A stretch of DNA of 58,943 nucleotides from an uncultured Chloroflexia bacterium (GCA_963726245.1 CAVSBT010000009.1:1-58943); one strand, 5' to 3'. Counted from the first letter of the stretch, positions 4,587 to 53,155 are shown. Program-made: numbers and translations. Notes: a model not told the origin generated them from the sequence alone.

Positions 4587-4598
4587 GAGAAACCTGCC

Positions 4599-8843: not shown

Positions 8844-8933
8844 GCTCCTCACCCTCCTACGTCTCATGCTAGCACAGGCGACAGGCCAGAACGCGAAGAC
8901 GCCGACGCGGCGGCGGCCCGCCTTGCGCCACCC

Positions 8934-9716: not shown

Positions 9717-9784
9717 CACGTTCCTCCTCAGCCCGCATGCTAGATCGATGGCAACCCCGCGTCCAGCAGCAATCCCCCCACCCA

Positions 9785-9810
9785 TAGGGGCGCAGCATGC
9801 TGCGCCCCTA
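9785..9810. repeat. GTAG-type REP palindrome copy 1
   Basis: Perfect palindrome TAGGGGCGCAGCATGCTGCGCCCCTA, intergenic. Confidence 0.8.
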
Positions 9811-9895
9811 CCTACCAGCCAAGGGCCGACGCAAGGCATGTTTGGATTGTATCGAGGATTCGTGGAATGTAAGCCGTCTTGGGAACGAGCGGCGC

Positions 9896-10522
9896 TCAGT
9901 CGCCGGGGGTGGCCTCGCGGAGTCCGTAGTACAGGACCCAACTGCCCGCGCCCACCAGGACGATGATCACGGCAGCCGACATAGAGCCCCACGGTACGAG
10001 CGGACCCGTACCGCCGTCTCCCGCCTTTGGCAGGCCGGTTACGCCGGTCGGGGAGGATGACTGGCTCTGGACGGCTGCGGCCGGCGTACCCTGCGGCGAC
10101 GGCTCGACGGTTGTGCTGGCCCGCATCAGGGCCGGAGTGGCCGAGGGCGTACCGCCGCCTGCGCCAATACTACAATGGTCGGGGTGGCCGTGGGAGTGCC
10201 GGTGGGCGTTACCGTAGAGGTGGCAGTGGGCGTGAAGGTAGGCGTTGGCGTGGCCGTGCTGGTAGATGTCGCCGTCGGCGTAGTGGTAGGGGTGTTCGTG
10301 GGCGTGTTGGTCGGCGTGCTCGTGGGTGTGCTGGTCGGCGTATCGGTGGGTGTGCTGGTTGGCGTGTCGGTGGGCGTACGTCGGTGGCGTCGACGTCTCC
10401 GCGTGGGCGATTCGGCTGGCGCCCGCCACCCCAGGGAGAACCAAAGACAGCGCCGCCGCCAGAGCCAGCGCCGCAGCGATACTCGCGGCCAGCCGCCACA
10501 TTCCTTGCGGTCGTACAGGCAT
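9896..10522 (-). CDS. Secreted Thr/Pro-rich surface protein with LPxAG sortase-like signal (two compensating indels near 10380 and 10170)
   Basis: Signal peptide [24 protein letters not shown]; [12 protein letters not shown] repeats in the 10126..10590 frame; C-terminal LPKAG + TM + short tail; RBS AGGAGG 8 nt before ATG 10522. Confidence 0.7.
10175..10380 (-). repeat. 12-bp coding tandem repeat (TPT-x units)
   Basis: Units such as ggtgggtgtgct / ggtcggcgtgct; translates to [28 protein letters not shown]. Confidence 0.8.
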
Positions 10523-10682
10523 CCTATGCTCCTCCTGTCGAGGGTGCGCGTGATTATCGGCCGCATGGGGTACGTCCAACAGTTCTCCATTTCCCTAATC
10601 CTAGCCCTCCCGGACGACAGGCTTATACTCCCTGCGTAACGCCCGGGAAAGCGACACGTTGTACTGATAGAGAAAGGTTGCC

Positions 10683-11384
10683 GTGCTCTGGCGGAAGCTG
10701 TTGCCTGCGTTCCGGTACCCTCGCCTGCCAGGACCTTCAGGCGGACGCCGGCGACTGCTGTTCGCTCTTCTCGCCATAGAGCTGGGCCTCCTGGTTGGCC
10801 TGGGCCTGACGGCCCTCGTGAAGGCGAAGGCCGGCGCTCACGAGTTCGTGGCCCGCGATACGGTGCTAACCGCGGGCGACCTGCCCTCAGGATGGGTTCC
10901 GGTCGATGCCGCCACCTATCCCTACATGACCAACAGCCCTCTCCTCCGTCTCATGCTGGAGGAAGAGACGGTCGCCGGCGCCTTCTCCGCCTATCGTGAC
11001 CCTCAGGACTCCTCCACAGTCGCCACCTACGTGGTCTTCCGGCCCGATGAGCCGCTGGCGCTCCACACCGGCGACGACAACCGCACCCTGGAGACGGTGA
11101 CGCCGCTGGTGATGGAGCTGGAGCGCCTCGCCCGACAGCGGCTTGATGGCGGGCTTCCCGAGCTCTTCTTCGCCGCCACCGACGTGCCTGTCCCCGACTC
11201 GCTCCGGGGCCGCAGCCTGGCGCCTCCCACAGGCGAAGGGGTCCAGTCTGACTCCATCCTCTTCGTCCAAGGCCCCGTGCTCGCCCTGGTGGTGATGGAA
11301 CACCCGCGCGGCAAGGAGACGTTCCAGCCCATCGAGGAACTGGCCCGGATCGTCTACAGCCGGGTCCTCGAGCAACTGGACTAG
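10683..11384 (+). CDS. Hypothetical single-TM membrane-anchored protein
   Basis: Basic N-terminus, one TM ([22 protein letters not shown]), extracytoplasmic domain starting [11 protein letters not shown]; coding-like codon bias. Confidence 0.65.
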
Positions 11385-11387
11385 CTT

Positions 11388-11460
11388 CCCCAAGCCCCAT
11401 CTAAGCGATCCCCCTAATATGATCCGCTATTCCCCCTAAACGTCGCGGCCTAACCCCTAA
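11388..11460 (+). promoter_or_regulatory. Phased CCCCTAA direct-repeat array upstream of arlB1
   Basis: CCCCTAA at 11411, 11433, 11454 (22 and 21 bp apart) plus CCCCAAG at 11388. Confidence 0.5.
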
Positions 11461-11529
11461 TCTCTTCGTCCCTTTAGCCGAAAATTACTCAGGACATACA
11501 TCTAGAGCCGTACGGTCCACGGCCGACAT
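11458..11529 (+). promoter_or_regulatory. Two candidate sigma28-like promoters for arlB1
   Basis: TAAT-N15-GCCGAAAA (11458-11484) and TAGA-N15-GCCGACAT (11503-11529) versus consensus TAAA-N15-GCCGATAA. Confidence 0.4.
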
Positions 11530-11569
11530 ATGGCTGCAAAGCCGCCCCGGGAGAATGGAGGGGCAAGAG

Positions 11570-12160
11570 ATGAAGCGATTTGCCAGCGCGCTACGCCGGG
11601 TCCACCGTGAAGAGCGAGGGATCACCGGTCTTGAGACCGCCATCATCCTCATCGCCTTCGTCGTGGTCGCGACCATCTTCGCCTTCGTCGTGTTGACTAC
11701 CGGTATCTTTAGCTCCGAGCGGGGCAAGGAGACCGTCTTCGCCGGCCTTGCGAAGGCCCGCGGCACCATGGAGGTGCGCGGCGGCATCGTCGCCACGGCG
11801 TCGGGCTCGCCCCTGGCTGTGAGCGACATCTTCTTCGCCGTGGCCACCACGGCCGGCGGCGAGTCCATTCCCCTTGACCCGACCGCCACTACAGACCGAA
11901 CGGTCATCGCCTACCGCGACTCCGCCAATGTAGACAACAACGTACCTTACACGGCCACCGGCATCGTCGGGGACGGCGACGCCCTCTTGGAGCCGGGTGA
12001 GCTGATGCTTATCAGCATCAGCCGGGCCGCCATCGCCGGCCCTCCCGCCATGGACGGAAACACACGCTTCACCTTCGAGATCCAGACACCGGTCGGTGCT
12101 GTCATCGACCTCACCCGTCAGTTGCCGACGGAGCTGTCGCCGGTGATGCAGCTCCACTAG
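11570..12160 (+). CDS. arlB: Archaellin 1 (archaeal flagellin)
   Basis: Class III signal peptide ERG|ITGLETAIILIAFVVVATIFAF, GDGDALLEPGE motif, FTFEIQTPVGAVIDLTRQLP C-terminus; RBS GGAGGGG before ATG 11570. Confidence 0.95.
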   Translation: MKRFASALRRVHREERGITGLETAIILIAFVVVATIFAFVVLTTGIFSSERGKETVFAGLAKARGTMEVRGGIVATASGSPLAVSDIFFAVATTAGGESIPLDPTATTDRTVIAYRDSANVDNNVPYTATGIVGDGDALLEPGELMLISISRAAIAGPPAMDGNTRFTFEIQTPVGAVIDLTRQLPTELSPVMQLH

Positions 12161-12173
12161 AGCCACATATCGA

Positions 12174-12217
12174 GGCGGCGCCCTGACGTTTCGCCGTACG
12201 TTCAAGCAGGGCGCCGC
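12174..12217. repeat. Hairpin element after arlB1; inverted copy lies after arlB2
   Basis: GCGGCGCCCTG-loop-CAGGGCGCCGC; its reverse complement matches 13556-13600 with 1 substitution and 1 indel. Confidence 0.85.
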
Positions 12218-12230
12218 TCGAAAGCAGCGG

Positions 12231-12267
12231 CAGGCGAAGGCCGGGCTTGTTGCCCGGCCTTCGCCTG
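12231..12267 (+). terminator. Strong GC-rich hairpin downstream of arlB1 (terminator-like)
   Basis: Perfect 16-bp stem CAGGCGAAGGCCGGGC/GCCCGGCCTTCGCCTG, loop TTGTT; weak U-tract. Confidence 0.55.
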
Positions 12268-12360
12268 TGTCTCACAACGGATACCGAGCGGATTAACGGA
12301 TACTGCCAGAACCCCCATCCATCCATCCGTTGGCCATCCGTCGACAGGCCTTCCTCCTGG

Positions 12361-12490
12361 TGTAGCGGAGGGCTTCAGCCCTCCACCCGCTCGTGGCGAC
12401 TTGACGGTCACGAACTAATTACACCACCTGCAGATTGAAATCCGCAGCTTCGCCGAAGCTGAGGGTTTCAACCCTCAGGGATGAAGCTAA
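12361..12490. mobile_element. Possible IS200/IS605-like end remnants (non-autonomous palindromic element)
   Basis: Hairpins GGAGGGCTTCAGCCCTCC and CTGAGGGTTTCAACCCTCAG-GGATGAA resemble IS200/605 terminal palindromes; no transposase in window. Confidence 0.3.
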
Positions 12491-12535
12491 ATAGTTGAAC
12501 GCCATAAGGTCGCCGCTGACCTTGCCCTCCGGAAC

Positions 12536-12563
12536 GTAGGGGCGCAGCATGCTGCGCCCCTAC
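12536..12563. repeat. GTAG-type REP palindrome copy 2
   Basis: Perfect palindrome GTAGGGGCGCAGCATGCTGCGCCCCTAC, core identical to copy 1. Confidence 0.8.
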
Positions 12564-12869
12564 TGCCACTTAGCCCAGGGCCGACGCCAATCAGCCAGCC
12601 CTCTGGCAGTCCGTATGTCTGCCGCTCCTGCTTCTGTGGATGGGTGCGCCCCTGGCGCTCTGACCACAGACCCCAAGAATAGGGTTTCCCCTAATAGAGC
12701 CCCTACGCCTGCGGTCGAACATTCTTCAGGCATACGTCTCGGGCCGTAAGGCCTTCGGACGATGCACGGGACGAAACCTATGGCAGTCGATAGACGCCCC
12801 ATCCGGCGGCGGCTGCCAGGGTCAGAGTGAAAGGAGGGCTGGTTGCCGGGAACAAATCCGTTCCGCCTG

Positions 12870-12890
12870 TTTAGCGGAAAATCAGCTCAG
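12870..12890 (+). promoter_or_regulatory. Upstream motif shared by arlB1 and arlB2
   Basis: TTTAGCGGAAAATCAGCTCAG here versus TTTAGCCGAAAATTACTCAG at 11473-11492. Confidence 0.5.
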
Positions 12891-12931
12891 ACCTAACCAA
12901 CCAAACCCTTACAAGAAAGGAGGGCTGCTAG

Positions 12932-13537
12932 ATGAAGCGACTTACCAGCGCACTGCGCCGGATCCACCGCGAAGAGCGAGGGATCACCGGTCTTGAGACC
13001 GCCATCATCCTCATCGCCTTCGTCGTGGTCGCCACCATCTTCGCCTTCGTCGTGTTGACCACCGGTATCTTCAGCGCCGAGCGTGGCAAGGAGACCGTCT
13101 TCGCCGGCCTGGCGAAGGCCCGCGGCACCATGGAGGTGCGCGGCGGCGTCGTCGCCTCGGCGACGGGCACAACCCTGGCCGTAGACCACATCTTCTTCAC
13201 CGTGGCCACTACGGCTGGCGGTGAGTCCATCCCCCTGGACCCGGACGGCCTGACGAACCGGACGGTCATCGCCTACCGCGACGCCACGGTCACGGACAAC
13301 GACGTGACGTACACGGCGGCCGACATCGTGGGAGACGGCGACACGCTCTTGGAGCCGGGCGAGGTAAAGGTCATTGACATTAACGCGGCTGACATCGCCA
13401 GTGATGTCAGCCCTGGCGTCCCCAGCTTGGCTGCCAATGACCGCTTCACCCTGGAGGTCCAGACGCCTGTCGGCGCCGTCCTCGACATCACCCGGCAACT
13501 GCCAGCGGAACTCGCTACAGTAATGCAGCTGCATTAG
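12932..13537 (+). CDS. arlB: Archaellin 2
   Basis: Same class III signal and N-terminal helix as arlB1, GDGDTLLEPGE, FTLEVQTPVGAVLDITRQLP; RBS AGGAGG. Confidence 0.95.
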   Translation: MKRLTSALRRIHREERGITGLETAIILIAFVVVATIFAFVVLTTGIFSAERGKETVFAGLAKARGTMEVRGGVVASATGTTLAVDHIFFTVATTAGGESIPLDPDGLTNRTVIAYRDATVTDNDVTYTAADIVGDGDTLLEPGEVKVIDINAADIASDVSPGVPSLAANDRFTLEVQTPVGAVLDITRQLPAELATVMQLH

Positions 13538-13555
13538 GAAGGACCCTGTGGGAGT

Positions 13556-13600
13556 GCGGCGCCCTGCTTGAACGTACGGCGGAACGGTCAGGGCGCCGCC
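13556..13600. repeat. Hairpin element after arlB2 (inverted copy of 12174-12217)
   Basis: GCGGCGCCCTGCTTGAACGTACGGCGGAACGGTCAGGGCGCCGCC. Confidence 0.85.
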
Positions 13601-13623
13601 CCCCTTAAGAAGGCAGGTATGCC

Positions 13624-14334
13624 ATGGAAATCACAGCTCAAATGGTCGCCATGGAGGAGGAGATCAAGGTCCTCAAGGGCGAGATCAAGTCGATCCTAGA
13701 GGAGATCAGGGCCTCCGTCCTCACCCGCGACAACCCCTTCGCCTTGCAGACCGGCCTGCCCGTATTCCAGCCCGTGGAGCGGTCGGACAAGACCAGCGAG
13801 CCCTCGCCAGCGCCGGAGCCCCTTCCCGCGCCGGAAGCGCACAGGGAGCCCGTGCCAGAGCCGGCGAGAGCCAGCGAGGCGGAAGACCCGCTCCCACCCG
13901 TTCTGCGGGTGGAGCCGGCCGCCGCTCTTCCGGAGACAAGGGAGGAGCCGCAGGCCGCGCCTCTGACGGTGATGGCTGGGGCCGGCCCGAGGGTCACCCC
14001 TCTACCCACGATGGCTGAGGTGATGGCTCCTCAGGTCTGGAGCGTGTCTACGATCGCCGGCCTGATTGCTTGGGTGGACGAGACGACCTCTCGACTGGGC
14101 ACCACCCACTTACAGATGATCCTGGACCTGGCCCGCTTCGCCGGTCTCATTCCGCCGGAGGCGGAGGAGGCCCTTATGAAAGTCATCAAGCTGGCCAGCA
14201 GCCGCAAGGACAGCGCCACCGTCTCTGTGAACGACACGCTGGTCGCCGTGCGACAGTTGGAGGCCATCTTCCAGGCGACGGAGAGCGACGAGATGTCCTA
14301 TCTACAAAGGCGTCGCAGCGGAAGGAACCGGTAG
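13624..14334 (+). CDS. ArlCDE-like archaellum accessory (switch) protein
   Basis: N-terminal coiled coil ending in NPF (FlaC-like), Pro/Glu linker, C-terminal W...G...ILD....G.I.PEA.E.L...S.ND pattern like FlaD/E; lies between arlB and arlG. Confidence 0.6.
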   Translation: MEITAQMVAMEEEIKVLKGEIKSILEEIRASVLTRDNPFALQTGLPVFQPVERSDKTSEPSPAPEPLPAPEAHREPVPEPARASEAEDPLPPVLRVEPAAALPETREEPQAAPLTVMAGAGPRVTPLPTMAEVMAPQVWSVSTIAGLIAWVDETTSRLGTTHLQMILDLARFAGLIPPEAEEALMKVIKLASSRKDSATVSVNDTLVAVRQLEAIFQATESDEMSYLQRRRSGRNR

Positions 14335-14417
14335 CGGCCACACAGCCGCCCGTCGGGGCGGGCCCGCCGGGCCTTCAGACTGGCAAGCCACCTGAAGGAG
14401 TGTAAGGGGGTGTAGCC

Positions 14418-14897
14418 ATCGAGAAGGCCATCTCTACTATCTTGCTGACCATAGCCGCGATCGTGGCCATCATGGCCATAGTCAACTCGGTCATGCCCGC
14501 GTTGAGCCGCGCCAACAGCTCGATGGTCATGACGTCTGACGCGATTAATGACCGCATCTCGAGCCAGATAGAGATCATCCACGCCACCGGCGTCGACACC
14601 GCCACCCAGGCCGACACCTGGGTCAAGAACGTGGGCTCCTCCCGCATCGGCCCGATCGACTACGCCGATGTCTTCTTCGGTCCCGAAGACGACTTTATTC
14701 GCATCCCCTACGGGGGCGCTAGCTGCTCGGCGCCCTGCTGGGAGTACGCGCTGGAAGGCGGCGCCACCGAGTGGGAGCCTACGGCTACTATGCACATCAT
14801 CGTCCACCTGGACTACTCACTCGCCACGGGCACCACCTACTTCGTCAAGGTGGTGGCGCCCAACGGCATCAGTGATGCCAAGTTCTTCAGCGTCTAG
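14418..14897 (+). CDS. arlG: Archaellum stator protein ArlG
   Basis: N-terminal hydrophobic helix, IEII...WVKNVGS...DVFFG...WEP...VKVVAPNG; in-frame ATC at 14418 behind RBS AAGGGGG (ORF track starts at TTG 14442). Confidence 0.8.
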   Translation: MEKAISTILLTIAAIVAIMAIVNSVMPALSRANSSMVMTSDAINDRISSQIEIIHATGVDTATQADTWVKNVGSSRIGPIDYADVFFGPEDDFIRIPYGGASCSAPCWEYALEGGATEWEPTATMHIIVHLDYSLATGTTYFVKVVAPNGISDAKFFSV

Positions 14898-14909
14898 GAG
14901 CGCCGGACT

Positions 14910-15410
14910 ATGGAGACCAGCATACCAGCCGTTATCGTCTCCGCCATCCTGATGGTGTCCGCTATGGTGCTGGCCCGGTCTGGCTATCAGTCCGTTGATC
15001 GGATGGGGCAGGTCTGGAAGGAGCTGGAGGTCCGTTCTAGCGAACAGGTCCACACCCAACTCGCCATCACCAACGTGACCTCTAACAGCCCCCACGTGGA
15101 CGTGGACCTTCTGAACGAAGGCAGCACAGCCCTGGCCGACTATGGCCGCATGGACGTGCTCGTCCAGTACACAACCGGCGGCGGCGCCCCCGTCGTGGCC
15201 TGGATTCCTTACACGAACGGCGCCCTGGCCCAGAACACCTGGGTGATCCAAGGCATCACCAACGACGCCTTCGAGCCGGGGATTCTCAACCCCGGTGAGA
15301 CGCTTAGGATGCGCATCTGGCTCGACCCGTCCGCCGGCGTCGGGACGACGAACCGGCTCGTCATCGCGACAGACCTGGGCATTACCGTCTCCACCGCTTT
15401 CATAGGCTAG
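14910..15410 (+). CDS. arlF: Archaellum stator protein ArlF
   Basis: N-terminal TM, LLNEGSTAL, DVLVQY, LNPGETL, RLVIATDLGI; lies before arlH. Confidence 0.8.
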   Translation: METSIPAVIVSAILMVSAMVLARSGYQSVDRMGQVWKELEVRSSEQVHTQLAITNVTSNSPHVDVDLLNEGSTALADYGRMDVLVQYTTGGGAPVVAWIPYTNGALAQNTWVIQGITNDAFEPGILNPGETLRMRIWLDPSAGVGTTNRLVIATDLGITVSTAFIG

Positions 15411-15448
15411 GTGAGACGTAGCCGATACATTAGCAGGGCAGGTGAAAC

Positions 15449-16165
15449 ATGATTCAGAACCCAGCGCACAAGAAACATTACATCTCCACCGGGAACGTGG
15501 AACTGGACAAGAAGATGGCCGGCGGCATTCCGGAGGGCTCGCTGACCCTGATAGAGGGCCAGTCCGAGTCAGGCAAGAGCGTGCTGACCCAGCAGTTGGT
15601 GTGGGGCGCCCTTCAGGATGCCAGACGGGTGGCCTACTACACCACTGAGAACACCACCCACAGCCTCCTCCGCCAGATGAGGAGCCTCAACCAGGACATC
15701 ACCGACTTCTTCCTCCTGGGCCGGATAAACATCTATCCCATGCGCTTAGCGCCCACGGAGGATGAGGCCCGCACGATGCTTCGCGCCGCCCTCGAACACA
15801 TGACAAGGATGACGGCGGACCGCGACCTCCTGGCGTTCGATTCGCTCAGTGTCTTTATGACCAGCATCCCTGAGCAGGAGACTCTGTCCTTCTTCATGGC
15901 GGTCAAAGAGCTGTGCGACCAGAACAAGACGCTGCTCCTGACCATGCACTCCTACGCCTTCAGCGAGGCCATGTTCATCCGCATCCGCTCCATCTGCGAC
16001 GCCTACCTCCGCATAAGGGTGGGGGAGGTAGGCACTCAACTCCTGAAGGAGATGGAGGTGTCCAAGGTCCGGGGCGCCGACCAGACCACCGGCAACGTCA
16101 TCGCCTTTGACGTCGAGCCAGGTTTGGGTATGCGCATCATACCGATGACCAGGGCCAAGGCATGA
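15449..16165 (+). CDS. arlH: Archaellum ATP-binding protein ArlH (RecA/KaiC-like)
   Basis: ELDKKMAGGIPEGSLTLIEGQSESGKS, YYTTEN, FDSLS, ICDAYL, IAFDVEPGLGMRI. Confidence 0.93.
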   Translation: MIQNPAHKKHYISTGNVELDKKMAGGIPEGSLTLIEGQSESGKSVLTQQLVWGALQDARRVAYYTTENTTHSLLRQMRSLNQDITDFFLLGRINIYPMRLAPTEDEARTMLRAALEHMTRMTADRDLLAFDSLSVFMTSIPEQETLSFFMAVKELCDQNKTLLLTMHSYAFSEAMFIRIRSICDAYLRIRVGEVGTQLLKEMEVSKVRGADQTTGNVIAFDVEPGLGMRIIPMTRAKA

Positions 16166-17901
16166 CAAATCTCCCCTTCAGCGGCGAGGGCACAAGCCAC
16201 CAACATGGGGCAGGCGCCGAGCAGTGCAGCCTCCAGGGGCTGCTGCCCCCGGCCCTTCAGGAAAGGACGGCCGAATCGCCGCACCTTCTGGAGTACCTGC
16301 ACCGGGTACCGATCGCCGAGGTGGGGGTGCCAGAGTACTACCCGGAGCTCAACCGCAAGCTGGGCGACCTGAAACATCCCAACCTGATCTACCCGGTGCC
16401 CGGCGACCTTTTCGTGCACATCTTCCCCGACGCTGAGGACGCGCGCGACTACTACATCAGCATCGAGCCTTCTTCCGTGGGAGACCTGGACCTCATCCTG
16501 GAGCAGCTTGAGAGCCGGCTGATGGATTATGTCGAAGCCCTGGAGCGCGCCGAAACGCCGGAGGCCAAGGCCGAGGTCCTGCGGCAGGCCGTCCGGGAGA
16601 ACTGCGCCGTGACGAGCGACGGAAAGAGCAAACGCTCCGATGGGAAAAAGTCCGGCGGTGGTCTCTTCTCACGCGGCCCGAAGTCGGAAGGCAAGATACC
16701 CGTTACCGCCGAGCAGTTGGCCGGCCTGGAGTACCTCCTGGTCCGCGACAAGATCGGCCTCGGCATCCTGGAGCCCATGATCCATGACCCCTACATTGAG
16801 GACATCAGTTGCAGTGGCCTGGGACGTCTCTTCATCGAGCACAAGGTCTTCAAGGGCCTCAAGAGCACCGCCACCTTCGATCACACGGAGGCCCTGGACG
16901 AGTTCGTCATCCGCCTCTCGGAGAAGATCCAGAAGCCGGTCACCTACCGGAACCCCATCGTCGATGCCACCCTGCCCGACGGCTCGCGCATAAACATCGT
17001 CTACGGGAGCGACGTGTCCAAGCGTGGTAGCAACTTCTCCATCCGCAAGTTCACCCTCACGCCTCTGAGCATCGTCGATATCGTCAGCAGCGGCGGCCTG
17101 AACAGCGAGATGGCAGGATACCTCTGGCTGGCCGTAAGCGAGGGCATGAACGTCTTCGTCTCGGGCGAGACGGCCTCCGGAAAGACGACCCTGCTCAACG
17201 CCATCTCGGGCTTCATCCAGCCCTGGGCCAAGATCGTGAGCATCGAGGACACGCCGGAGCTTCAGGTGCCGCACCCCAACTGGATCCGCGAGGTGGTCCG
17301 GGGCAGCATGTCCGACGACGACTCCTCGGTGACCATGTTCAGCCTGCTGAAGGCCGCCCTGCGGCAGCGGCCCAACGCCATCCTCGTAGGCGAGATCCGT
17401 GGTGAGGAGGGAGCGATCGCCTTTCAGGCCATGCAGACCGGCCACGCCGTCATGGCCACATTCCACGCCTCCACGGTGGAGAAGCTCATCCAGCGTCTCA
17501 CCGGCCATCCGATCGACGTGCCCAAGGTCTACATTGACAACCTGAACGTGGTGGTCCTCTGTGGCTCTGTACGGCTGCCTACCGGGAAGATGGGGCGGCG
17601 CATACTCTCTATCGCCGAGATCATCGACTACGACTCTGAGACTGATTCGTTCTCTTTCATCGAGATCTTCCGCTGGGACTCCTCCAGGGACATCCACGAG
17701 TTTACGGGAGACGGAAACAGCTACCTACTGGAGCAGGTTATCGCTCCCAGGCGCGGCCTGGACGCCCGCAGCAAGCGGGTTATCTACGACGAAGTGGAGC
17801 GCCGGGGGAGCCTCATCAAGAAGCTGAGCGAAAGCGGCAGAACCAATTTCTATGATATCTATCAAGTCTTTTCTCAGGCGGGGCGCGAAGGCCTCCTCTA
17901 G
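16162..17901 (+). CDS. arlI: Archaellum motor ATPase ArlI
   Basis: NLIYPV..DLFVHI, DPYIEDISCSG, PIVDATLPDGSRINIVY, GETASGKTT, EDTPE, ALRQRPN, VGEIRG, TFHA. Confidence 0.95.
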   Translation: MTNLPFSGEGTSHQHGAGAEQCSLQGLLPPALQERTAESPHLLEYLHRVPIAEVGVPEYYPELNRKLGDLKHPNLIYPVPGDLFVHIFPDAEDARDYYISIEPSSVGDLDLILEQLESRLMDYVEALERAETPEAKAEVLRQAVRENCAVTSDGKSKRSDGKKSGGGLFSRGPKSEGKIPVTAEQLAGLEYLLVRDKIGLGILEPMIHDPYIEDISCSGLGRLFIEHKVFKGLKSTATFDHTEALDEFVIRLSEKIQKPVTYRNPIVDATLPDGSRINIVYGSDVSKRGSNFSIRKFTLTPLSIVDIVSSGGLNSEMAGYLWLAVSEGMNVFVSGETASGKTTLLNAISGFIQPWAKIVSIEDTPELQVPHPNWIREVVRGSMSDDDSSVTMFSLLKAALRQRPNAILVGEIRGEEGAIAFQAMQTGHAVMATFHASTVEKLIQRLTGHPIDVPKVYIDNLNVVVLCGSVRLPTGKMGRRILSIAEIIDYDSETDSFSFIEIFRWDSSRDIHEFTGDGNSYLLEQVIAPRRGLDARSKRVIYDEVERRGSLIKKLSESGRTNFYDIYQVFSQAGREGLL

Positions 17902-19417
17902 CGAACCGGGCGACAAGGCTCCGGCGCTCTCCTCCTCCCTCTTCAACCGGGAGCCGCTGGACTTCGACCTGATCAGCCAGCTCACCCACATGTCGGCCGC
18001 GGCCACGGCCGGGATATCGCGCGACAAGCTATTCGAAGGAACGTCCCGCCTCGACTACTGCACCTCCCGCTTCTTTCGCCGCGTGCACCTGGTGGCGCAA
18101 CGCCTCAACTACGACTACTCCAGCGCCTGCGAGATGGTAGCCGAAACGACGGAGGCCGAGAGCGTGCAAAACCTGCTCCTTCGCCTCTCCACCTCTCTCT
18201 CGGCCGGTGAGCCGGAAGAAGAGTTCCTGGCCCGCGAGACTGAGGTGCAACTGGAACTTTATGGTAAGAAGTACGAGCGCGACATCGAATCGCTGCGCAA
18301 GTGGACGGACGCCTACGTAGCCCTCATGGTCTCCTGCACCCTCATCGTGGTCATCTCCATGGTCTCGATGATGATCTACTCCATGGGGTCGGGCATCATC
18401 GTCGGTTTGGCCTTCATCGTGCTGCTGGTGACCATAGCCGGAAGCTGGGTCATCTTCAGCGTAGCCCCCCACGAGGTGAAAACCCATCACCTGGCGAGGA
18501 AGTCGCCCGAGCAGTACCAGATGAAGCGGCTGGGTCAGATCCTGCTGCCGGTGGCGGCCGTCTTCGGCGCCGTGCTGGGCATCACCTTCGGGCTGGGTCC
18601 GGCCCTCATCGGGGCCGCGGTGGTCCTGGCGCCGCTGGGCTACGTGGCCTTCCGCGATGACCGGAAGATAGATTCCCGCGACCAGGACATCGCCACGTTC
18701 TTGCGCGCCCTGGGCGGCGTGATGGGCGCCGTGGGAACCACCGTCGGCGAGGGCCTCAACCGGCTCAACCGGCGCTCCCTGGGCTCCCTGGAGCCTCACG
18801 TGCGCCGTCTCTATGTGCGGTTGGGCAACAACATATCGCCACAGCTCTGCTGGCTGCGCTTCGCCGGTGAGACAGGATCAGAGCTGGTGAGCCGCTCCGT
18901 GCGCACCTTCTTCGACGGCCTGCGCCTGGGCGGGGATGCCAGCCGAGTGGGTACCCTCTCCTCCACCTTCGCCCAGAAGGTGGCGCTGCAGCGGTCCACA
19001 CGCAAGATGGTGTCCTCCACCTTCGCCTTCGTGGTGGTTCCGCTCCACGTCGTTCTCCTGTCCATCATGCTCTTCATCACGGAAGTGATGCGTATATTCG
19101 GCGGCGAGCTGGCCAAGGTCCAAGACCAAAGCCTCAACAGCGACATCATATCTGAGGCGGGAGTGAACAACATCATCCTCTACTCCGCCCCCAACATGCG
19201 CTTCATCAGCATCTTCGTCGGCATAATGATCGTCGTGCTGACGGCGGCCAACAGCTTCGCGCCCTACGCGGCTGGGGGCGGAAATCGTTACAAGCTCTGC
19301 CTGTTCGCAGCCGTAATGATGTTCATGTCGGGCGTCGCCATGATGGTCGTGCCGGCCATGGTGTCGATGGTCTTCCACAACATAGCGGCCACGCCCACGA
19401 TCACGTCAACACCGTAA
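17852..19417 (+). CDS. arlJ: Archaellum membrane platform protein ArlJ
   Basis: Two T2SSF-like domains with TM blocks, YERDIESLRKWTDAY, F.GETGSELV, GG.RYKL; follows arlI. Confidence 0.9.
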   Translation: MISIKSFLRRGAKASSSEPGDKAPALSSSLFNREPLDFDLISQLTHMSAAATAGISRDKLFEGTSRLDYCTSRFFRRVHLVAQRLNYDYSSACEMVAETTEAESVQNLLLRLSTSLSAGEPEEEFLARETEVQLELYGKKYERDIESLRKWTDAYVALMVSCTLIVVISMVSMMIYSMGSGIIVGLAFIVLLVTIAGSWVIFSVAPHEVKTHHLARKSPEQYQMKRLGQILLPVAAVFGAVLGITFGLGPALIGAAVVLAPLGYVAFRDDRKIDSRDQDIATFLRALGGVMGAVGTTVGEGLNRLNRRSLGSLEPHVRRLYVRLGNNISPQLCWLRFAGETGSELVSRSVRTFFDGLRLGGDASRVGTLSSTFAQKVALQRSTRKMVSSTFAFVVVPLHVVLLSIMLFITEVMRIFGGELAKVQDQSLNSDIISEAGVNNIILYSAPNMRFISIFVGIMIVVLTAANSFAPYAAGGGNRYKLCLFAAVMMFMSGVAMMVVPAMVSMVFHNIAATPTITSTP

Positions 19418-19431
19418 GAAGGGAGGCAACC

Positions 19432-19965
19432 ATGCGGTTCCTAAACCGGCTGCTAAAGACCCCCGAAGAGGAACAGGACGAAACCCAGGACGAGTTCGAC
19501 GCCGAAGAGAAGGGCCTGCTCATGATACCCTCTCTTCCCGGCGGCAAAGACGAAGCACCGCCTTCGGCGATGCTGGAGACGGCGGTTGGCGAGCCAGAAA
19601 CGCTCGCGGCGGAAGGAACGGCGCAAGGCCCGCCCGCGGAGGGCGAAGCTGCAACCGGTCCAGACCAGGTCGCGCAGCCCTCCGCCGGCGAAGGGGAGCC
19701 CACGACTGCGACCCAAGAGTCGCCACCCACTGAGGATTCGACGCCGGAGACCGCGGGCGAAGGAACCGAGGAGGAGGGCTCTCCCGATGACCCGATGCAC
19801 ATGTTCAGGGCCAGCGCCAAGCGCACCTATATGGCGGCGGCACTGACGGATGGCCTGGAAGACGTCTCTATCGCGGAGCTCCTGGCCGAGGCCCGCTCCC
19901 TTCGCGCCATCCTCGGCGGAGAGGCCGCAAGTGACGCCGGTGAGGGGAAGCGGAAGGTTGCCTAA
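19432..19965 (+). CDS. Acidic low-complexity hypothetical protein, probably co-transcribed with arl genes
   Basis: RBS GGGAGG, 14 nt after arlJ; amphipathic N-terminus MRFLNRLLK, E/P/A-rich middle, helical C-terminus. Confidence 0.7.
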   Translation: MRFLNRLLKTPEEEQDETQDEFDAEEKGLLMIPSLPGGKDEAPPSAMLETAVGEPETLAAEGTAQGPPAEGEAATGPDQVAQPSAGEGEPTTATQESPPTEDSTPETAGEGTEEEGSPDDPMHMFRASAKRTYMAAALTDGLEDVSIAELLAEARSLRAILGGEAASDAGEGKRKVA

Positions 19966-19971
19966 CCGGTC

Positions 19972-21201
19972 ATGCTCACCACCATCTGGGCGGTAACGGT
20001 TCGTGCGATCGCCGTGCTGACGGCGGTCCTGGCTGTCGGCGCCATCGTCATCTCGCTCAAGGTGGTCGGCGCGCAGGCGGGACCGCCTGATGGCGCGGCA
20101 GACACGCCCATCGCATCAAGCGATCCCGCCGCAGACGCTGAGGCGCAACCTCTCCAGCCCGTGCTGGCGACCAGGCAGACTGAGCAAGGATCCGAGGACC
20201 ATCAAGCCGCGTCCTCCGCGTTATCCGCCCGCTACGCGGCGCCCAGCGAGGCGCTGCCCGCCACCCGCGCTCGCGCCGTCTCAGGACAGACGAATGTGTC
20301 CGAACGCCCCCGAGTCACGCTGCCCGCCAACCGGCGGCTGGCCGCCGTCCTCGACGTGGGCTCGTCAGCTCCGGCCGGCGTCGTAGAGATGGCCCAACTC
20401 GTCAAGCAAGGCCTGGAGTCAAAGGGCTACGACGTGAGCCTGCTGGAAGGCGATGCCGCCGGCGCCACGGGCCCTCTCCGACCCGACGCCTACGTCTCCG
20501 TTCGAGCCGCGACCGCCACAGAGGCCGCCGCCGGCGTGGAGGCCTGGTTCTGCCAGGTGGAAGGCGCCCTTGGCGGCCAACTGGCCGATCAGTTGCTGAG
20601 GAGCCTCGCGGCGGCCGGCGTGCCCAACGTGGGCCAGGGCGACTCCGCCATCACGAATCCCGAGGCCTTCAGTTGCAGCGACCTCCTCGCCGGTCGTGCG
20701 CAGATGCCAGCGGTCCTTCTCGAAATCCCGGCTCTGGCCGGCGGAGAAAGCGATGGGCACGCGCTCACGCAAGGCCTTGCCAATGGCATCCAGCAATTCT
20801 TCCAGAAGTACAGAACCTCACTCCTGCGGAACGACCAGCGCCAGCGCCTGGTCTGGCCTGCCGTTGGCCCCATCACGAGCTACTTCGGCCCCAGTCACCC
20901 GCTGGGAATAGACATCGGGCAGTCGGAGGGTGCGATCGTGGCGGCCACCGATGGCGTCGTCGTCTTCGCCGGCGGCGACCCCTGTTGTTCCTACGGCCTG
21001 TACACCGTCGTCCAGAGCCCGGAGGGGATCGCCACGCTCTACGCGCACCTGGAGTCGATCAGCGTGACCCAGGGGCAGAGCGTGCGGCAGGGACAGCCGC
21101 TGGGCATCGTGGGCTGCACCGGCCACTGCTTCGGCACGCACCTCCACTTCGAGGTGATCCAGGACGGCGTTCGCCGGGACCCTCTCTCCTATCTGCCGTA
21201 G
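19972..21201 (+). CDS. Membrane-anchored degenerate Amidase_3 plus M23 metallopeptidase
   Basis: N-terminal TM; amidase-like VLDVG / DAYVSVRA / MPAVLLE; M23 HPLGIDI, TLYAHL, GCTG...HLHFEV. Confidence 0.85.
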   Translation: MLTTIWAVTVRAIAVLTAVLAVGAIVISLKVVGAQAGPPDGAADTPIASSDPAADAEAQPLQPVLATRQTEQGSEDHQAASSALSARYAAPSEALPATRARAVSGQTNVSERPRVTLPANRRLAAVLDVGSSAPAGVVEMAQLVKQGLESKGYDVSLLEGDAAGATGPLRPDAYVSVRAATATEAAAGVEAWFCQVEGALGGQLADQLLRSLAAAGVPNVGQGDSAITNPEAFSCSDLLAGRAQMPAVLLEIPALAGGESDGHALTQGLANGIQQFFQKYRTSLLRNDQRQRLVWPAVGPITSYFGPSHPLGIDIGQSEGAIVAATDGVVVFAGGDPCCSYGLYTVVQSPEGIATLYAHLESISVTQGQSVRQGQPLGIVGCTGHCFGTHLHFEVIQDGVRRDPLSYLP

Positions 21202-21353
21202 CGCTCGACCAGCTTTCTCACCCCCGAATCGACCGGCAGGCGCTCTGGTCCATATGCCCAGAAACATGGGCCAATCGGCAGTATGCAAAACCGACGGCGC
21301 CTATGTAGATTCGAACCAGGCGACTCACACGCAGTCTACAAAGGGGTGTTTCT

Positions 21354-53121: not shown

Positions 53122-53155
53122 CGACGGCGAGACCAGCGCCGGAGGAGGACTAGCC

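What the first reader, a model, noticed from the sequence alone, without database searches (positions are those of the whole stretch)
11570..19417. Complete archaellum (archaeal flagellum) operon in a bacterial genome context
Seen: two archaellins with class III signals (ERG|ITGLETAII), then arlCDE-like, arlG, arlF, arlH, arlI and arlJ in one indel-free, tightly spaced run. The neighbours are bacterial (L,D-transpeptidase, M23 peptidase, lipobox proteins) and GC and codon style match the flanks. Established: the archaellum is an ATP-driven rotary type-IV-filament machine of archaea, G-before-F order is the fla2 arrangement, and archaellum clusters have been reported in some Chloroflexota. Inference: an old archaea-to-bacteria transfer giving non-flagellar swimming. 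The accessory genes and regulatory signals described in the other findings are the least characterised part.
Basis: partly seen in the sequence, partly recalled or inferred. Interest (0 to 1): 0.95.

Follow-up and report, generated by a model that had tools for sequence, protein, structure and literature searches.

The report
Archaellum operon in a Dehalococcoidia bacterium
A bacterium of the phylum Chloroflexota carries a complete, intact gene set for the archaeal swimming motor, a cross-domain transfer already published in 2025, here followed by two bacterial add-on genes that may tie the motor to the cell wall.

Summary
Window 11570-19417 (+) encodes two archaellins with class III signal peptides, an ArlD/E-like protein, ArlG, ArlF, ArlH, ArlI and ArlJ, all intact and closely spaced. 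The contig is bacterial and not chimeric. Its flanks are collinear with three related genomes, and GTDB relatives in the same family are public "Dehalococcoidia bacterium" MAGs.

Sivabalasarma et al. 2025 (PMC12488501) report archaellum genes in 243 of 3,780 Chloroflexota genomes, including Dehalococcoidia, with arlG-arlF order, and swimming shown in Litorilinea aerophila.

What I could not find in print is the operon's tail. A 177-aa acidic protein (19432-19965) belongs to an unnamed Chloroflexota-only family. That family sits directly after the last arl gene in 42 of 63 bacterial loci and 0 of 17 archaeal loci. It co-occurs with ArlI in 14 of 21 ArlI-positive Dehalococcoidia genomes, against 1 of 130 ArlI-negative ones. 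In this window a membrane-anchored M23 peptidoglycan peptidase follows it (19972-21201). Elsewhere the family's motif is fused to LysM or M23 modules. It is a candidate link between motor and cell wall, which is inference only.

The parts
10683..11384 (+). Conserved upstream gene (233 aa, one predicted N-terminal membrane helix, no family hit). It lies just before arlB in three related genera. Whether it belongs to the system is uncertain.
   Evidence: No Pfam hit even at E<=10. Orthologues sit immediately upstream of arlB in G001 (79%) and G004 (59%). Sequence.
11404..11462 (+). Three copies of the motif CCCCTAA, 115-160 nt upstream of arlB1. Candidate regulatory site.
   Evidence: The window holds only 4 copies of CCCCTAA on either strand, and all 4 lie upstream of the two archaellin genes. 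The 8-mer CCCCTAAT occurs 13 times in the 2.68-Mb genome, 3 of them here.
11570..12160 (+). arlB1, archaellin with a class III signal peptide (MKRFASALRRVHREERG|ITGLETAII...)
   Evidence: Pfam Arch_flagellin 76.8 bits. TIGR02537 27.9 bits. PDB 9i5h E 6e-33, with the solved chain starting at the aligned Ile.
12170..12267 (+). Two tandem GC-rich hairpins right after the arlB1 stop codon. Probable terminator or RNA-stabilising element, which would make arlB1 its own transcription unit.
   Evidence: Inverted repeats I14 (11 nt, 100%) and I4 (16 nt, 100%). The fold of 12158-12290 gives -77 kcal/mol, z -6.56, and 0 of 200 shuffles fold as well. No T-run, so the consensus terminator scan did not list them.
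12680..12697 (+). Imperfect palindrome TAGGGTTTCCCCTAAT, 244 nt upstream of arlB2
   Evidence: Conserved with its context 251 nt upstream of arlB2 in G001. The extended motif occurs only twice in the genome, here and at C37:145749.
12932..13537 (+). arlB2, second archaellin, 75% identical to arlB1. First gene of the tightly packed run.
   Evidence: Pfam Arch_flagellin 86.6 bits. PDB 9i5h E 3.3e-37. BLASTP against arlB1.
13624..14334 (+). ArlD/E-like protein (236 aa): N-terminal coiled coil with an LKGEIK...IR...NPF motif, a Pro-rich linker, and a conserved C-terminal helical domain
   Evidence: No Pfam or NCBIfam hit of its own. Aligns with the gene in the same slot of Methanosarcina and Archaeoglobus loci. 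Chloroflexota profile against archaeal profile: probability 99.7%, E 4.4e-26 over 89 columns. 3 of 21 family members weakly hit PF04659 Arch_fla_DE, best E 4.5e-4.
14442..14897 (+). arlG (stator or periplasmic filament protein)
   Evidence: PDB FlaG 5tug E 2.7e-8. Pfam Arch_flagellin 34.2 bits. NCBIfam ArlG is the only hit, but at 22.5 bits against a cut-off of 110.
14910..15410 (+). arlF (stator protein)
   Evidence: NCBIfam ArlF is the only hit, at 27.4 bits against a cut-off of 110. Pfam FlaF_Ig-like 22.5 bits against 28.4. Top PDB hit is FlaF 4p94 at E 0.022. The call rests mainly on position and on homology to arlF in archaeal loci.
15449..16165 (+). arlH (KaiC-like ATP-binding regulator of ArlI)
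   Evidence: NF004723 FlaH 279.2 bits (cut-off 194). ArlH equivalog 212.4 bits (cut-off 215). PDB FlaH 4yds E 1.6e-32.
16162..17901 (+). arlI (hexameric motor and assembly ATPase). Walker A GETASGKT is present.
   Evidence: NF058587 642.2 bits (cut-off 550). Next best models: BasE 184 and TadA 159 bits. PDB FlaI 4ii7 436 bits against CpaF 145 bits.
17852..19417 (+). arlJ (polytopic membrane platform)
   Evidence: NF004703 ArlJ/FlaJ E 3.1e-134, 448 bits, full length, but below the 570 cut-off. Pfam T2SSF only 15 bits.
19432..19965 (+). Unnamed acidic 177-aa protein ('Y177'). It has conserved N-terminal (MRFLxRLLKTP..DEFxAEExGLLM) and C-terminal (DDPxxxFR...LxDVxxxELLAEARxIR) motifs joined by a Pro/Glu-rich linker, and starts 14 nt after arlJ.
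   Evidence: No Pfam hit at E<=10. 34 homologues, none with a Pfam domain; those carrying a name are called 'hypothetical'. Position and co-occurrence statistics. Alignments A4 and A5.
19972..21201 (+). Membrane-anchored cell-wall enzyme (409 aa): N-terminal membrane helix, disordered linker, a domain with a MurNAc-L-Ala-amidase-like fold (about 121-290), and a C-terminal M23/LytM peptidase domain. It starts 6 nt after Y177.
   Evidence: Pfam Peptidase_M23 81.8 bits at residues 312-404. AlphaFold2 model: helix 2-35, and pLDDT mostly 64-96 for most of 121-290. Foldseek finds LytM domains, plus peptidoglycan amidases 4m6h_B (E 2.5e-6, TMt 0.65) and 4rn7 (E 4e-5, TMt 0.58). Full-length orthologues follow arlJ and Y177 in G001, G004 and G007.

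Best explanation
This is a genuine, complete arl2-type archaellum operon in the chromosome of an uncultured Dehalococcoidia bacterium (Chloroflexota). It was inherited vertically within that lineage after the ancient transfer from Methanotecta-like Euryarchaeota that has already been published.

The proposed working is inferred from homology to the archaeal machine and from the experiments on Litorilinea aerophila. The two pre-archaellins are cut after the Gly of ...REERG|ITG... by one of the genome's A24 prepilin peptidases. The ArlJ platform and the ArlI ATPase then feed them into a filament. ArlI, modulated by ArlH and surrounded by the ArlD/E-like protein, drives rotation by ATP hydrolysis. 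[quoted passage not shown] The result is flagellum-independent swimming.

arlB1 looks like a separate transcription unit ending in two strong hairpins. arlB2 through arlJ run on without gaps into two bacterial additions, the Y177 protein and a membrane-anchored M23 peptidoglycan peptidase.
For: - Identity of the parts: (scores are listed under parts). ArlI scores 642 bits on the archaellum-motor model, against 159 on TadA and at most 63 on the PilB, PilT and GspE models.
- All ORFs are intact and spaced by -50 to +107 nt.
- Bacterial host. Same-family relative G004 is, by matching coordinates, CAZMGB010000003.1, 'uncultured Dehalococcoidia bacterium'. The genome holds a bacterial 16S gene scoring 1550 bits on RF00177 and 4 penicillin-binding transpeptidases. 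The contig itself carries YkuD and M23 genes.
- Not chimeric. The region is collinear with a 73-kb contig of same-genus G001 from window 748 to 31897, and both cluster edges are shared with G004 and G007.
- Long residence. ArlI orthologues occur in 30 of 40 relatives, 15 of 17 in the same family, and GC3 equals the host's.
- The ArlI tree places the window inside a 13-row Dehalococcoidia clade (SH-aLRT 99). The 17 archaeal rows sit on one side of a single branch (99).
- Processing enzymes are present: three A24 peptidases, two of bacterial PilD type.
- No flagellar FlhA was found.
- Published context, sections read: 243 of 3,780 Chloroflexota genomes carry archaellum genes, with arlGF order and the peptidase outside the locus, and L. 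aerophila swims with an archaellum.
Against: - ArlF, ArlG and ArlJ fall below NCBI's curated cut-offs, and the ArlH equivalog model does so narrowly. The ArlD/E-like gene has no direct family hit.
- ArlF's best solved relative reaches only E 0.022.
- No CheW or CheF was found, so directed taxis is unsupported.
- The genome is a bin, 82.8% complete with 6.3% contamination. Absences are therefore soft, and the 16S gene lies on another contig.
- I have no expression, read-coverage or microscopy data.
- My tree used only the 80 best ArlI hits and one very long outgroup (branch length 10). It cannot show the direction of transfer. With that root the archaeal clade even appears nested among the bacterial rows.
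Confidence: 0.9

Rival explanations
1. The Y177 and M23 genes belong functionally to this archaellum. Y177 would be a cytoplasmic tether with two conserved end motifs. Together with the membrane-anchored peptidoglycan enzyme, or fused to LysM/M23 modules in other lineages, it would open or grip the bacterial cell wall at the motor. This would be a bacterial adaptation with no archaeal counterpart. It adds to the best explanation rather than replacing it.
For: - The gaps are 14 and 6 nt, with no convincing terminator between arlJ and the M23 gene.
- An iterative search with Y177 over 14,133 ORFs of 80 ArlI loci gave 45 hits in 42 of 63 bacterial loci and 0 of 17 archaeal loci. Reversed and five shuffled queries gave 0 hits each.
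- 43 of the 45 hits start directly after the last arl gene, whichever it is: arlJ in 31 cases and arlI in 12. The other 2 lie directly upstream of an M23 gene that precedes arlB.
- Among 151 Dehalococcoidia genomes, the motif is found in 14 of 21 ArlI-positive and 1 of 130 ArlI-negative genomes. That one hit is the weakest, at E 2.7e-4. All 14 lie within 4 kb downstream of arlI on the same strand.
- In a phylum sample the motif is in 3 of 4 ArlI-positive and 0 of 297 ArlI-negative genomes.
- Fusions: L058 reads as one frame holding the Y motif, a membrane helix, 2 LysM domains and M23. L034 holds the Y motif plus 2 LysM domains.
- An M23 gene lies within 7 kb of arlI in 9 of 30 ArlI-positive relatives, from four GTDB families.
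- PMC13319060 states that it is unknown how peptidoglycan-bearing Chloroflexota without PilN/PilO anchor archaella (passages seen).
Against: - Everything rests on gene position. Related genomes are not independent samples.
- M23 is not adjacent in 21 of 30 ArlI-positive relatives. Every relative also carries a housekeeping paralogue.
- 7 of 21 ArlI-positive Dehalococcoidia, and the SAR202-like clade, show no Y motif.
- This genome has PilN and PilO elsewhere.
- Y177 is largely disordered. Short acidic motifs are easy to over-interpret.
- The L058 fusion could be an indel error in a MAG.
Confidence: 0.4
2. The cluster is an inherited relic, or serves a function other than swimming (adhesion filament, secretion, DNA uptake), in this lineage.
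For: - No chemotaxis genes (CheW, CheF) were found.
- The cited paper notes that cultivated SAR202 isolates with archaellum operons showed no filaments (PMC12488501, Main, passage seen).
- Several component models score below curated cut-offs.
Against: - All eight genes are intact, and 73-91% identical to the same-genus orthologues over a collinear region.
- The rotary-specific parts (ArlH, ArlF, ArlG, ArlD/E-like) are kept. These are not needed for a mere pilus.
- The cluster is retained in 30 of 40 relatives.
- The preprint 10.64898/2026.05.11.724246 counts a chemosensory system in only 82 (58 F1 and 24 ACF) of 226 archaellated Chloroflexota. Its absence here is therefore usual (passages seen).
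- L. aerophila swims.
Confidence: 0.08
3. The contig is archaeal, mis-binned, or a chimeric join of archaeal and bacterial DNA.
For: - The bin has 6.3% contamination.
- Bulk GC of the cluster is 2-6 points below the flanks.
Against: - The same flanks on both sides of the cluster occur in three independently assembled related genomes, one on a 220-kb contig.
- GC3 of the arl genes matches the host's genes.
- Bacterial cell-wall genes lie on the same contig.
- The nearest ArlI sequences at 56-87% identity are all from Chloroflexota. Archaeal ones reach at most 54%.
Confidence: 0.02

Closest known systems
Archaellum clusters of Chloroflexota (Sivabalasarma et al. 2025, Nat Microbiol, PMC12488501; model organism Litorilinea aerophila)
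   Same: - Same gene set: arlB copies, an arlCDE-type gene, arlG before arlF, then arlH, arlI and arlJ.
- The prepilin peptidase lies outside the locus and is of bacterial PilD type.
- No flagellar genes were found and no CheF.
- The best solved relative of both archaellins is PDB 9i5h. I believe this is the L. aerophila filament, but that is recalled. The output calls it only 'Flagellin', and the id is not in the paper's held text.
   Different: - The host belongs to another class (Dehalococcoidia, not Caldilineales), and the archaellins are only roughly half identical to 9i5h.
- No cheY-like, pilN or pilO-LysM gene lies beside the cluster. PilN and PilO sit on another contig.
- Instead the operon ends with Y177 and an M23 peptidase. 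Neither is mentioned in the main text of that paper (0 occurrences of M23, hydrolase, endopeptidase, hypothetical).
arl2-type archaellum clusters of Methanotecta (Archaeoglobaceae, Methanosarcinales)
   Same: Same order: arlB, arlD/E-like, arlG, arlF, arlH, arlI, arlJ. ArlI is 50-54% identical. The C-terminal domain of the arlD/E-slot protein is homologous.
   Different: - None of the 17 archaeal loci has a Y177-type gene.
- None of the 16 archaeal loci in which arlJ was located has an M23 gene in the table.
- Five whole archaeal genomes gave no Y-motif match better than E 0.0099, and that one lay away from the arl locus.
- The hosts are archaea.
PilN/PilO-LysM alignment scaffold proposed for the L. 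aerophila archaellum (PMC13319060, Front Microbiol 2026)
   Same: The same problem has to be solved: an archaeal motor must pass through and hold on to bacterial peptidoglycan. LysM or other peptidoglycan-directed modules are encoded next to arl genes.
   Different: The proteins are unrelated. That paper finds pilO-LysM next to arl genes in only 3 of 244 archaellated genomes, and says the solution in the others is unknown (passages seen). The Y-motif family is far more common: 42 of 63 bacterial loci.
Dedicated peptidoglycan enzymes of other envelope-spanning machines (flagellar FlgJ, type IV secretion VirB1; LytM factors EnvC, NlpD, DipM). Recalled, not tested here.
   Same: An M23/LytM domain is encoded within a machine's operon. 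The best fold matches are the EnvC and DipM LytM domains.
   Different: No sequence relation to FlgJ or VirB1 was tested. Here the LytM domain keeps the HLHFE motif and is joined to an amidase-like fold. By my recalled reading of the Amidase_3 zinc motif, that fold lacks the usual histidines, but this was not tested.
Tad / type IVa pili and type II secretion (bacterial type IV filament systems)
   Same: Same superfamily core: ATPase, platform protein, prepilin-like subunit and A24 peptidase. The genome also holds such systems on contigs C17, C25, C29 and C31.
   Different: The window's ATPase scores 642 bits on the archaellum model against 159 (TadA), 63 (PilT) and 59 (PilB, GspE). ArlH, ArlF and ArlG have no counterpart in those systems.

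Membership tests
Archaellum (arl) gene cluster | Archaellin(s) with a class III (type IV prepilin-like) signal peptide and a hydrophobic N-terminal helix | tested here: met
   Two genes exceed the Pfam Arch_flagellin and TIGR02537 cut-offs. The cleavage-site Gly is followed by ITGLETAIILIAF. The solved chain 9i5h starts at the aligned Ile.
Archaellum (arl) gene cluster | ArlI, an archaellum-specific motor ATPase distinct from the pilus and secretion ATPases | tested here: met
   NF058587 642.2 bits, above its cut-off of 550. TadA 159 bits. PDB FlaI 436 bits against CpaF 145.
Archaellum (arl) gene cluster | ArlJ membrane platform | tested here: inconclusive
   The best three NCBIfam hits are all ArlJ/FlaJ models (E 3e-134, 448 bits, full length), but all fall below their curated cut-offs of 570, 400 and 550. 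The position after arlI and 33-69% identity to arlJ in other arl loci argue for membership.
Archaellum (arl) gene cluster | ArlH, a KaiC-like ATP-binding protein | tested here: met
   NF004723 'flagellar accessory protein FlaH' 279.2 bits, above its cut-off of 194. The ArlH equivalog scores 212.4, just under 215. PDB FlaH 4yds E 1.6e-32.
Archaellum (arl) gene cluster | ArlF and ArlG stator proteins | tested here: inconclusive
   ArlG: PDB FlaG E 2.7e-8, and Pfam Arch_flagellin above its cut-off. ArlF: only sub-threshold hits, namely NCBIfam ArlF 27.4 against 110, FlaF_Ig-like 22.5 against 28.4, and PDB FlaF E 0.022. In each case the named family is the top or only hit, and the gene order fits.
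Archaellum (arl) gene cluster | Cytoplasmic accessory: ArlCDE (Euryarchaeota) or ArlX (Thermoproteota) | tested here: inconclusive
   The protein itself has no Pfam or NCBIfam hit. Its C-terminal domain is homologous to the arlD/E-slot gene of archaeal arl2 clusters (hhalign 99.7%). 3 of 21 family members weakly hit Arch_fla_DE. No separate ArlC-like gene was seen.
Archaellum (arl) gene cluster | arl2 arrangement (arlG before arlF) | tested here: met
   The 14442-14897 ORF matches ArlG/FlaG and the 14910-15410 ORF matches ArlF/FlaF.
Archaellum (arl) gene cluster | A class III signal peptidase (PibD/ArlK or PilD) in the genome | tested here: met
   Three Peptidase_A24 genes lie on C17, C29 and C19. 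Two carry the bacterial A24 N-terminal domain. Which of them cuts the archaellins is unknown.
Archaellum (arl) gene cluster | Assembles a rotating filament that drives swimming | not testable with these tools
   Shown for L. aerophila in PMC12488501 (section read). Nothing here bears on this organism.
Chloroflexota archaellum clade (single transfer to Dehalococcoidia + Anaerolineae) | ArlI groups with Chloroflexota sequences, apart from archaeal ones | tested here: met
   Quick ML tree of 91 rows. The window lies in a 13-row Dehalococcoidia clade (99), and one branch (99) separates the 17 archaeal rows from the 70 bacterial rows. Rooting and direction could not be tested.
Tad / type IV pilus / type II secretion | ATPase and platform protein score best on the TadA/PilB/GspE and TadB/PilC/GspF models | tested here: not met
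   TadA 159, PilT 63, PilB 59 and GspE 59 bits, against 642 for ArlI. Pfam T2SSF on ArlJ gives only 15 bits, E 0.021.
M23/LytM peptidoglycan peptidases (gene 19972-21201) | M23 domain with the zinc-binding motifs | tested here: met
   Pfam 81.8 bits against 28.7. HLHFE and GIDI are conserved in all aligned orthologues. The first His sits one residue off the usual HxxxD spacing (SHPLGID), so activity is likely but unproven.

The most novel reading that the evidence does not exclude
Most archaellated Chloroflexota outside the SAR202-like clade carry an undescribed, bacteria-only archaellum component. It is a cytoplasmic acidic 'tether' protein, always encoded at the 3' end of the arl operon. In several lineages it is fused or coupled to membrane-anchored LysM, amidase-fold or M23 modules directed at peptidoglycan. 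On this reading it is the adaptation that lets an archaeal rotary motor be inserted into, and braced against, a bacterial peptidoglycan wall. This window shows the split form: Y177 plus the TM-amidase-like-M23 protein.
Probability: 0.35. Interest if true: 0.7.

Novelty: new member of a known kind. Interest (0 to 1): 0.4.

Why it matters
The headline is no longer news. It is a complete archaeal motility machine living in a bacterium, and that was published in 2025 with structure and motility data. This window is one more example, from a class already listed there.

The operon's tail is where further work could add something. Those who study the bacterial archaellum state that they do not know how it crosses and anchors in peptidoglycan in the many Chloroflexota that lack a PilN/PilO-LysM neighbour (PMC13319060).

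The Y-motif gene family follows the archaellum cluster across at least 11 GTDB families and is absent from the nearest archaeal clusters. It is sometimes fused to peptidoglycan-binding or peptidoglycan-cutting domains. That makes it a concrete, testable candidate for the missing adaptation, and a marker for annotating bacterial archaellum loci.

Tried and rejected
- **Archaeal or chimeric contig.** Rejected on synteny with G001, G004 and G007 and on GC3.
- **Tad, T4P or T2SS identity.** Rejected on model scores.
- **Rfam over the whole window.** No match at gathering scores.
- **Consensus promoter and terminator scan of 11300-21500.** No better than shuffles: 1 promoter found against 1.5 expected, and 6 terminators against 5.4. 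No promoter is claimed.
- **Family searches.** Pfam and NCBIfam gave nothing for the ArlD/E-like protein or Y177, and Pfam gave nothing for the two ORFs at 10027-11384. NCBIfam run on the 21 members of the ArlD/E-like family gave only coiled-coil noise (Rad50, SMC).
- **Y177 as a diverged ArlD/E.** Rejected: hhalign probability 0.3%.
- **Y177 as a CheF substitute.** No CheF or CheW is present in the genome, so there is nothing to connect.
- **Protein atlas.** Only Chloroflexota 'hypothetical' clusters for Y177. For the ArlD/E-like protein, one lead at 0.87 to a cluster in which 11% of members carry Arch_fla_DE.
- **Complex prediction** of the ArlD/E-like protein, ArlH and Y177: verdict 'no answer', score 0.00. 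This is no evidence either way.
- **ArlI tree.** The outgroup branch was too long to root the tree, so I draw no direction of transfer from it.
- **The second genomic copy of the TAGGGTTTnCCCCTAAT motif** lies upstream of an 829-aa spermine-synthase-like membrane protein. I could not connect it to motility.
- **Literature.**
  - 'archaellum' + 'peptidoglycan hydrolase': 2 papers hold both terms; the one listed is not relevant.
  - 'archaellum' + 'LysM' + 'Chloroflexota': 3 records, the Nat Microbiol paper, its preprint and the Frontiers paper.
  - Inside the two published papers (the preprint was not opened), the terms M23, hydrolase, endopeptidase and hypothetical have 0 occurrences.

Full report
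**What is there.** The window is the whole of contig C9 of a metagenome-assembled genome: 2.68 Mb in 46 contigs, 82.8% complete, 6.3% contamination. Between 11570 and 19417 on the + strand lie eight intact ORFs with gaps of -50 to +107 nt, apart from a 771-nt spacer after the first.

- The first two are archaellins: Pfam Arch_flagellin 76.8 and 86.6 bits against a cut-off of 29.5, and the NCBIfam archaellin N-terminal domain at 27.9 against 20. They are 75% identical to each other. Both begin MKR...REERG|ITGLETAIILIAF.
- Their best solved relative, PDB 9i5h (E 6e-33 and 3e-37), starts exactly at the aligned isoleucine. This fits cleavage after the glycine.
- The last four genes are ArlH, ArlI and ArlJ, preceded by ArlG and ArlF.
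  - ArlI is the clearest: 642 bits on NCBI's archaellum-motor model (cut-off 550), against 159 on TadA and about 60 on PilB, PilT and GspE. In the PDB it scores 436 bits on Sulfolobus FlaI, against 145 on CpaF.
  - ArlH passes the FlaH subfamily cut-off (279 against 194) and matches FlaH 4yds.
  - ArlJ matches only ArlJ/FlaJ models (E 3e-134) but stays below their curated cut-offs.
  - ArlG matches FlaG 5tug at E 2.7e-8.
  - ArlF has only sub-threshold hits, although every one is to FlaF/ArlF.
- The order is therefore G before F, the arl2 arrangement.

**The 'arlCDE-like' gene.** The 236-aa ORF at 13624-14334 has no Pfam or NCBIfam hit, even at E 10.

- In 80 loci fetched around ArlI relatives, a homologue sits in the same slot in Dehalococcoidia and also in Methanosarcinales, Archaeoglobaceae and related archaea.
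- A profile of 11 Chloroflexota members matches a profile of 10 archaeal members with probability 99.7% and E 4e-26, over the C-terminal 89 columns.
- Three of 21 members weakly hit Pfam Arch_fla_DE, best E 4.5e-4.

I call it ArlD/E-like. I saw no separate ArlC.

**Is the host a bacterium, and is the contig sound?**

- Same-family relative G004 (GTDB kinship) has an ArlI match whose contig length and coordinates coincide with public record CAZMGB010000003.1, 'uncultured Dehalococcoidia bacterium'. Same-order G021 coincides with CAYOSF010000024.1, also Dehalococcoidia.
- The bin holds a bacterial 16S gene, on another contig, and four penicillin-binding transpeptidases.
- The window itself carries an M23 peptidase and a YkuD L,D-transpeptidase.
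- Window genes from 748 to 31897 are collinear with a 73-kb contig of same-genus G001. Both edges of the cluster are shared with G004 and G007. Three independent assemblies with the same joins rule out a chimera.
- Bulk GC dips in the cluster (0.62-0.64 against 0.66-0.70). Third-position GC of the arl genes (0.83-0.88) is the host's. The dip therefore reflects protein composition, not recent arrival.

**History.**

- Full or partial ArlI orthologues (60-87% identical) occur in 30 of 40 GTDB relatives, and in 15 of 17 in the same family.
- Among the 80 best ArlI loci in the species-representative collection, those at 56-69% identity are all named Chloroflexota. The best archaeal ones, at 50-54%, are Archaeoglobaceae, Methanosarcinales and Ca. 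Methanoxibalbensis.
- In a quick maximum-likelihood tree of 91 rows, the window sits in a 13-row Dehalococcoidia clade (SH-aLRT 99). One branch (99) separates the 17 archaeal rows from the 70 bacterial rows. The only outgroup, a Tad-like paralogue, has a branch length of 10, so the root is untrustworthy and I infer no direction from it.
- The direction comes from Sivabalasarma et al. 2025 (PMC12488501; I read Results part 1, the HGT section and the Discussion). They report:
  - archaellum genes in 243 of 3,780 Chloroflexota genomes;
  - arlGF order, arlCDE rather than arlX, and the signal peptidase outside the locus;
  - flagella and archaella as mutually exclusive;
  - one transfer of the complete cluster from Methanotecta-like Euryarchaeota to the ancestor of Dehalococcoidia and Anaerolineae;
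  - a 2.7-Å filament structure and swimming in Litorilinea aerophila.

Everything I see fits that picture.

- Three A24 peptidases lie elsewhere in the genome, two of them of bacterial PilD type.
- No FlhA, CheW or CheF was found, in a genome 83% complete.
- A 2026 preprint counts a chemosensory system in only 82 (58 F1 and 24 ACF) of 226 archaellated Chloroflexota, so its absence here is ordinary (passages seen).

**How it most likely works.** This is inferred by homology. One of the A24 peptidases cuts the pre-archaellins. ArlJ and the ArlI hexamer assemble them into a filament and then rotate it by ATP hydrolysis. ArlH modulates ArlI, the ArlD/E-like protein forms the cytoplasmic surround, and ArlF and ArlG act as stator.

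arlB1 is followed at once by two perfect GC-rich hairpins. The fold gives -77 kcal/mol, z -6.6, and 0 of 200 shuffles fold as well. I read arlB1 as its own, probably abundant, transcript, with arlB2 heading the long operon.

The motif CCCCTAA occurs four times in the 58.9-kb window, and all four lie upstream of the two archaellin genes. An extended palindrome-like form, about 250 nt upstream of arlB2, is conserved in G001. This is a candidate regulator site and nothing more.

**The tail of the operon.** Fourteen nucleotides after arlJ comes a 177-aa acidic protein (Y177). Six nucleotides later comes a 409-aa protein with an N-terminal membrane helix, a disordered linker, a confidently modelled middle domain and a C-terminal M23/LytM domain. 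Foldseek matches the middle domain to peptidoglycan amidases: 4m6h_B at E 2.5e-6 and TMt 0.65, and 4rn7 at E 4e-5.

*Family and conserved motifs.*

- Y177 has no Pfam hit. Its 34 database homologues have no Pfam domain, and those that carry a name are called 'hypothetical'.
- Its family keeps two short conserved ends, MRFLxRLLKTP..DEFxAEExGLLM and DDPxxxFR...LxDVxxxELLAEARxIR, around a Pro/Glu-rich linker.

*Position beside the arl genes.*

- An iterative search over all 14,133 ORFs of the 80 loci gave 45 hits, in 42 of 63 bacterial loci and 0 of 17 archaeal loci. A reversed query and five shuffled queries gave 0 hits.
- Forty-three hits begin directly after the last arl gene: arlJ in 31 cases, and arlI in 12 where the order is rearranged. 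The other two lie directly upstream of an M23 gene that precedes arlB.

*Co-occurrence with ArlI in genome samples.*

- In an even sample of 151 Dehalococcoidia genomes, the 45-residue motif occurs in 14 of 21 ArlI-positive genomes, each time within 4 kb downstream of arlI on the same strand. It occurs in 1 of 130 ArlI-negative genomes, and that hit is the weakest, at E 2.7e-4.
- In a 301-genome phylum sample it occurs in 3 of 4 ArlI-positive and 0 of 297 ArlI-negative genomes.
- Five archaeal genomes with the closest archaella gave nothing better than E 0.0099, and that match lay elsewhere in the genome.

*Fusions and M23 neighbours.*

- In L058 one reading frame holds the Y motif, a membrane helix, two LysM domains and M23. 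In L034 it holds the Y motif and two LysM domains.
- An M23 gene lies within 7 kb of arlI in 9 of 30 ArlI-positive relatives, from four GTDB families.

*What speaks against a functional reading.*

- Related genomes are not independent samples.
- M23 is not adjacent in 21 of 30 ArlI-positive relatives, and every genome has a housekeeping LysM-M23 paralogue.
- Seven ArlI-positive genomes and the SAR202-like clade lack the motif.
- This genome has PilN and PilO elsewhere.
- A complex prediction of Y177 with ArlH and the ArlD/E-like protein gave no answer.

**Comparison with what is known, and novelty.** The archaellum operon itself is a new member of a known and published kind. The class, the gene order and the evolutionary story are all in PMC12488501.

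For the tail genes I found no description. M23, hydrolase, endopeptidase and hypothetical have 0 occurrences in the main texts of PMC12488501 and PMC13319060. Two full-text searches gave nothing further.

PMC13319060 proposes PilN/PilO-LysM as the wall-spanning scaffold in L. aerophila. It finds that arrangement next to arl genes in only 3 of 244 genomes, and says that how the others anchor archaella is unknown. The Y-motif family, with its LysM and M23 partners, is a candidate for that gap. I put this at about 0.35-0.4.

**Verdict.** The headline is already known. The residual interest lies in the conserved, bacteria-only tail module.

Noticed in passing
window 11404-11462 and 12680-12697; G000:C37:145749: The motif CCCCTAA occurs 4 times in the window, and all 4 lie upstream of arlB1 and arlB2. 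The extended form TAGGGTTTnCCCCTAAT occurs only twice in the 2.68-Mb genome. The second site lies between divergent genes, one of them an 829-aa spermine-synthase-like membrane protein. Possible shared regulator site.
   Followed up: partly
window 12170-12267: Two perfect GC-rich hairpins (11-bp and 16-bp stems) directly after the arlB1 stop codon, with z -6.6 against shuffles. The spacer between the two archaellin genes is also long (roughly 0.55-0.6 kb) in G001 and G004.
   Followed up: partly
window 19972-21201 (residues ~121-290): The M23 protein carries a confidently modelled domain with a peptidoglycan-amidase fold that Pfam does not detect. By my recalled reading of the Amidase_3 zinc motif, it lacks the usual histidines (LDVGSS, YVSVRA). 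It may therefore be a binding or regulatory domain rather than an enzyme.
   Followed up: partly
window 10683-11384: A 233-aa membrane-anchored protein with no family hit lies just upstream of arlB in the window, G001 and G004. Another possible lineage-specific accessory gene.
   Followed up: no
L040, L070, L077, L085, L091, L093, L097; G135, G184: Tandem duplicated arlI genes (two full-length copies, 52-56% identical to the window's ArlI) in one Dehalococcoidia clade. The two copies fall into separate subclades of the ArlI tree.
   Followed up: no
L033, L044, L048, L066, L067, L069, L073, L076, L083, L086, L088: A rearranged cluster order (arlB, arlG, arlF, a longer second arlF, arlJ, then arlH and arlI last) in Dehalococcoidales-type loci. 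Where sequence after arlI is available, the Y-motif gene then follows arlI instead of arlJ.
   Followed up: partly
G029:C1:262467-266495: A relative with ArlI split into two frames (residues 31-107 and 255-579), with an M23 gene 2 kb away. This looks like a decaying archaellum cluster.
   Followed up: no
G001:C1 (L102 about 2660-11390) versus window 9992-10683: G001 has about 8.7 kb between the HpcH aldolase gene and the gene upstream of arlB, where the window has 0.7 kb. The extra DNA holds paralogues of window genes 51685-54322.
   Followed up: no
G000 contigs C17, C29, C31, C25: The same genome also encodes bacterial type IV filament systems. PilD-type peptidases sit next to PilN-like genes and PilB-like ATPases on C17 and C29. 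PilN and PilO are on C31, and a TadA-like ATPase is on C25.
   Followed up: partly
ArlI tree: When rooted on the only available outgroup, the 17 archaeal ArlI rows appear nested among the Chloroflexota rows. With an outgroup branch of length 10 and only the closest archaeal sequences sampled, I treat this as a rooting artefact, but I did not test it.
   Followed up: no
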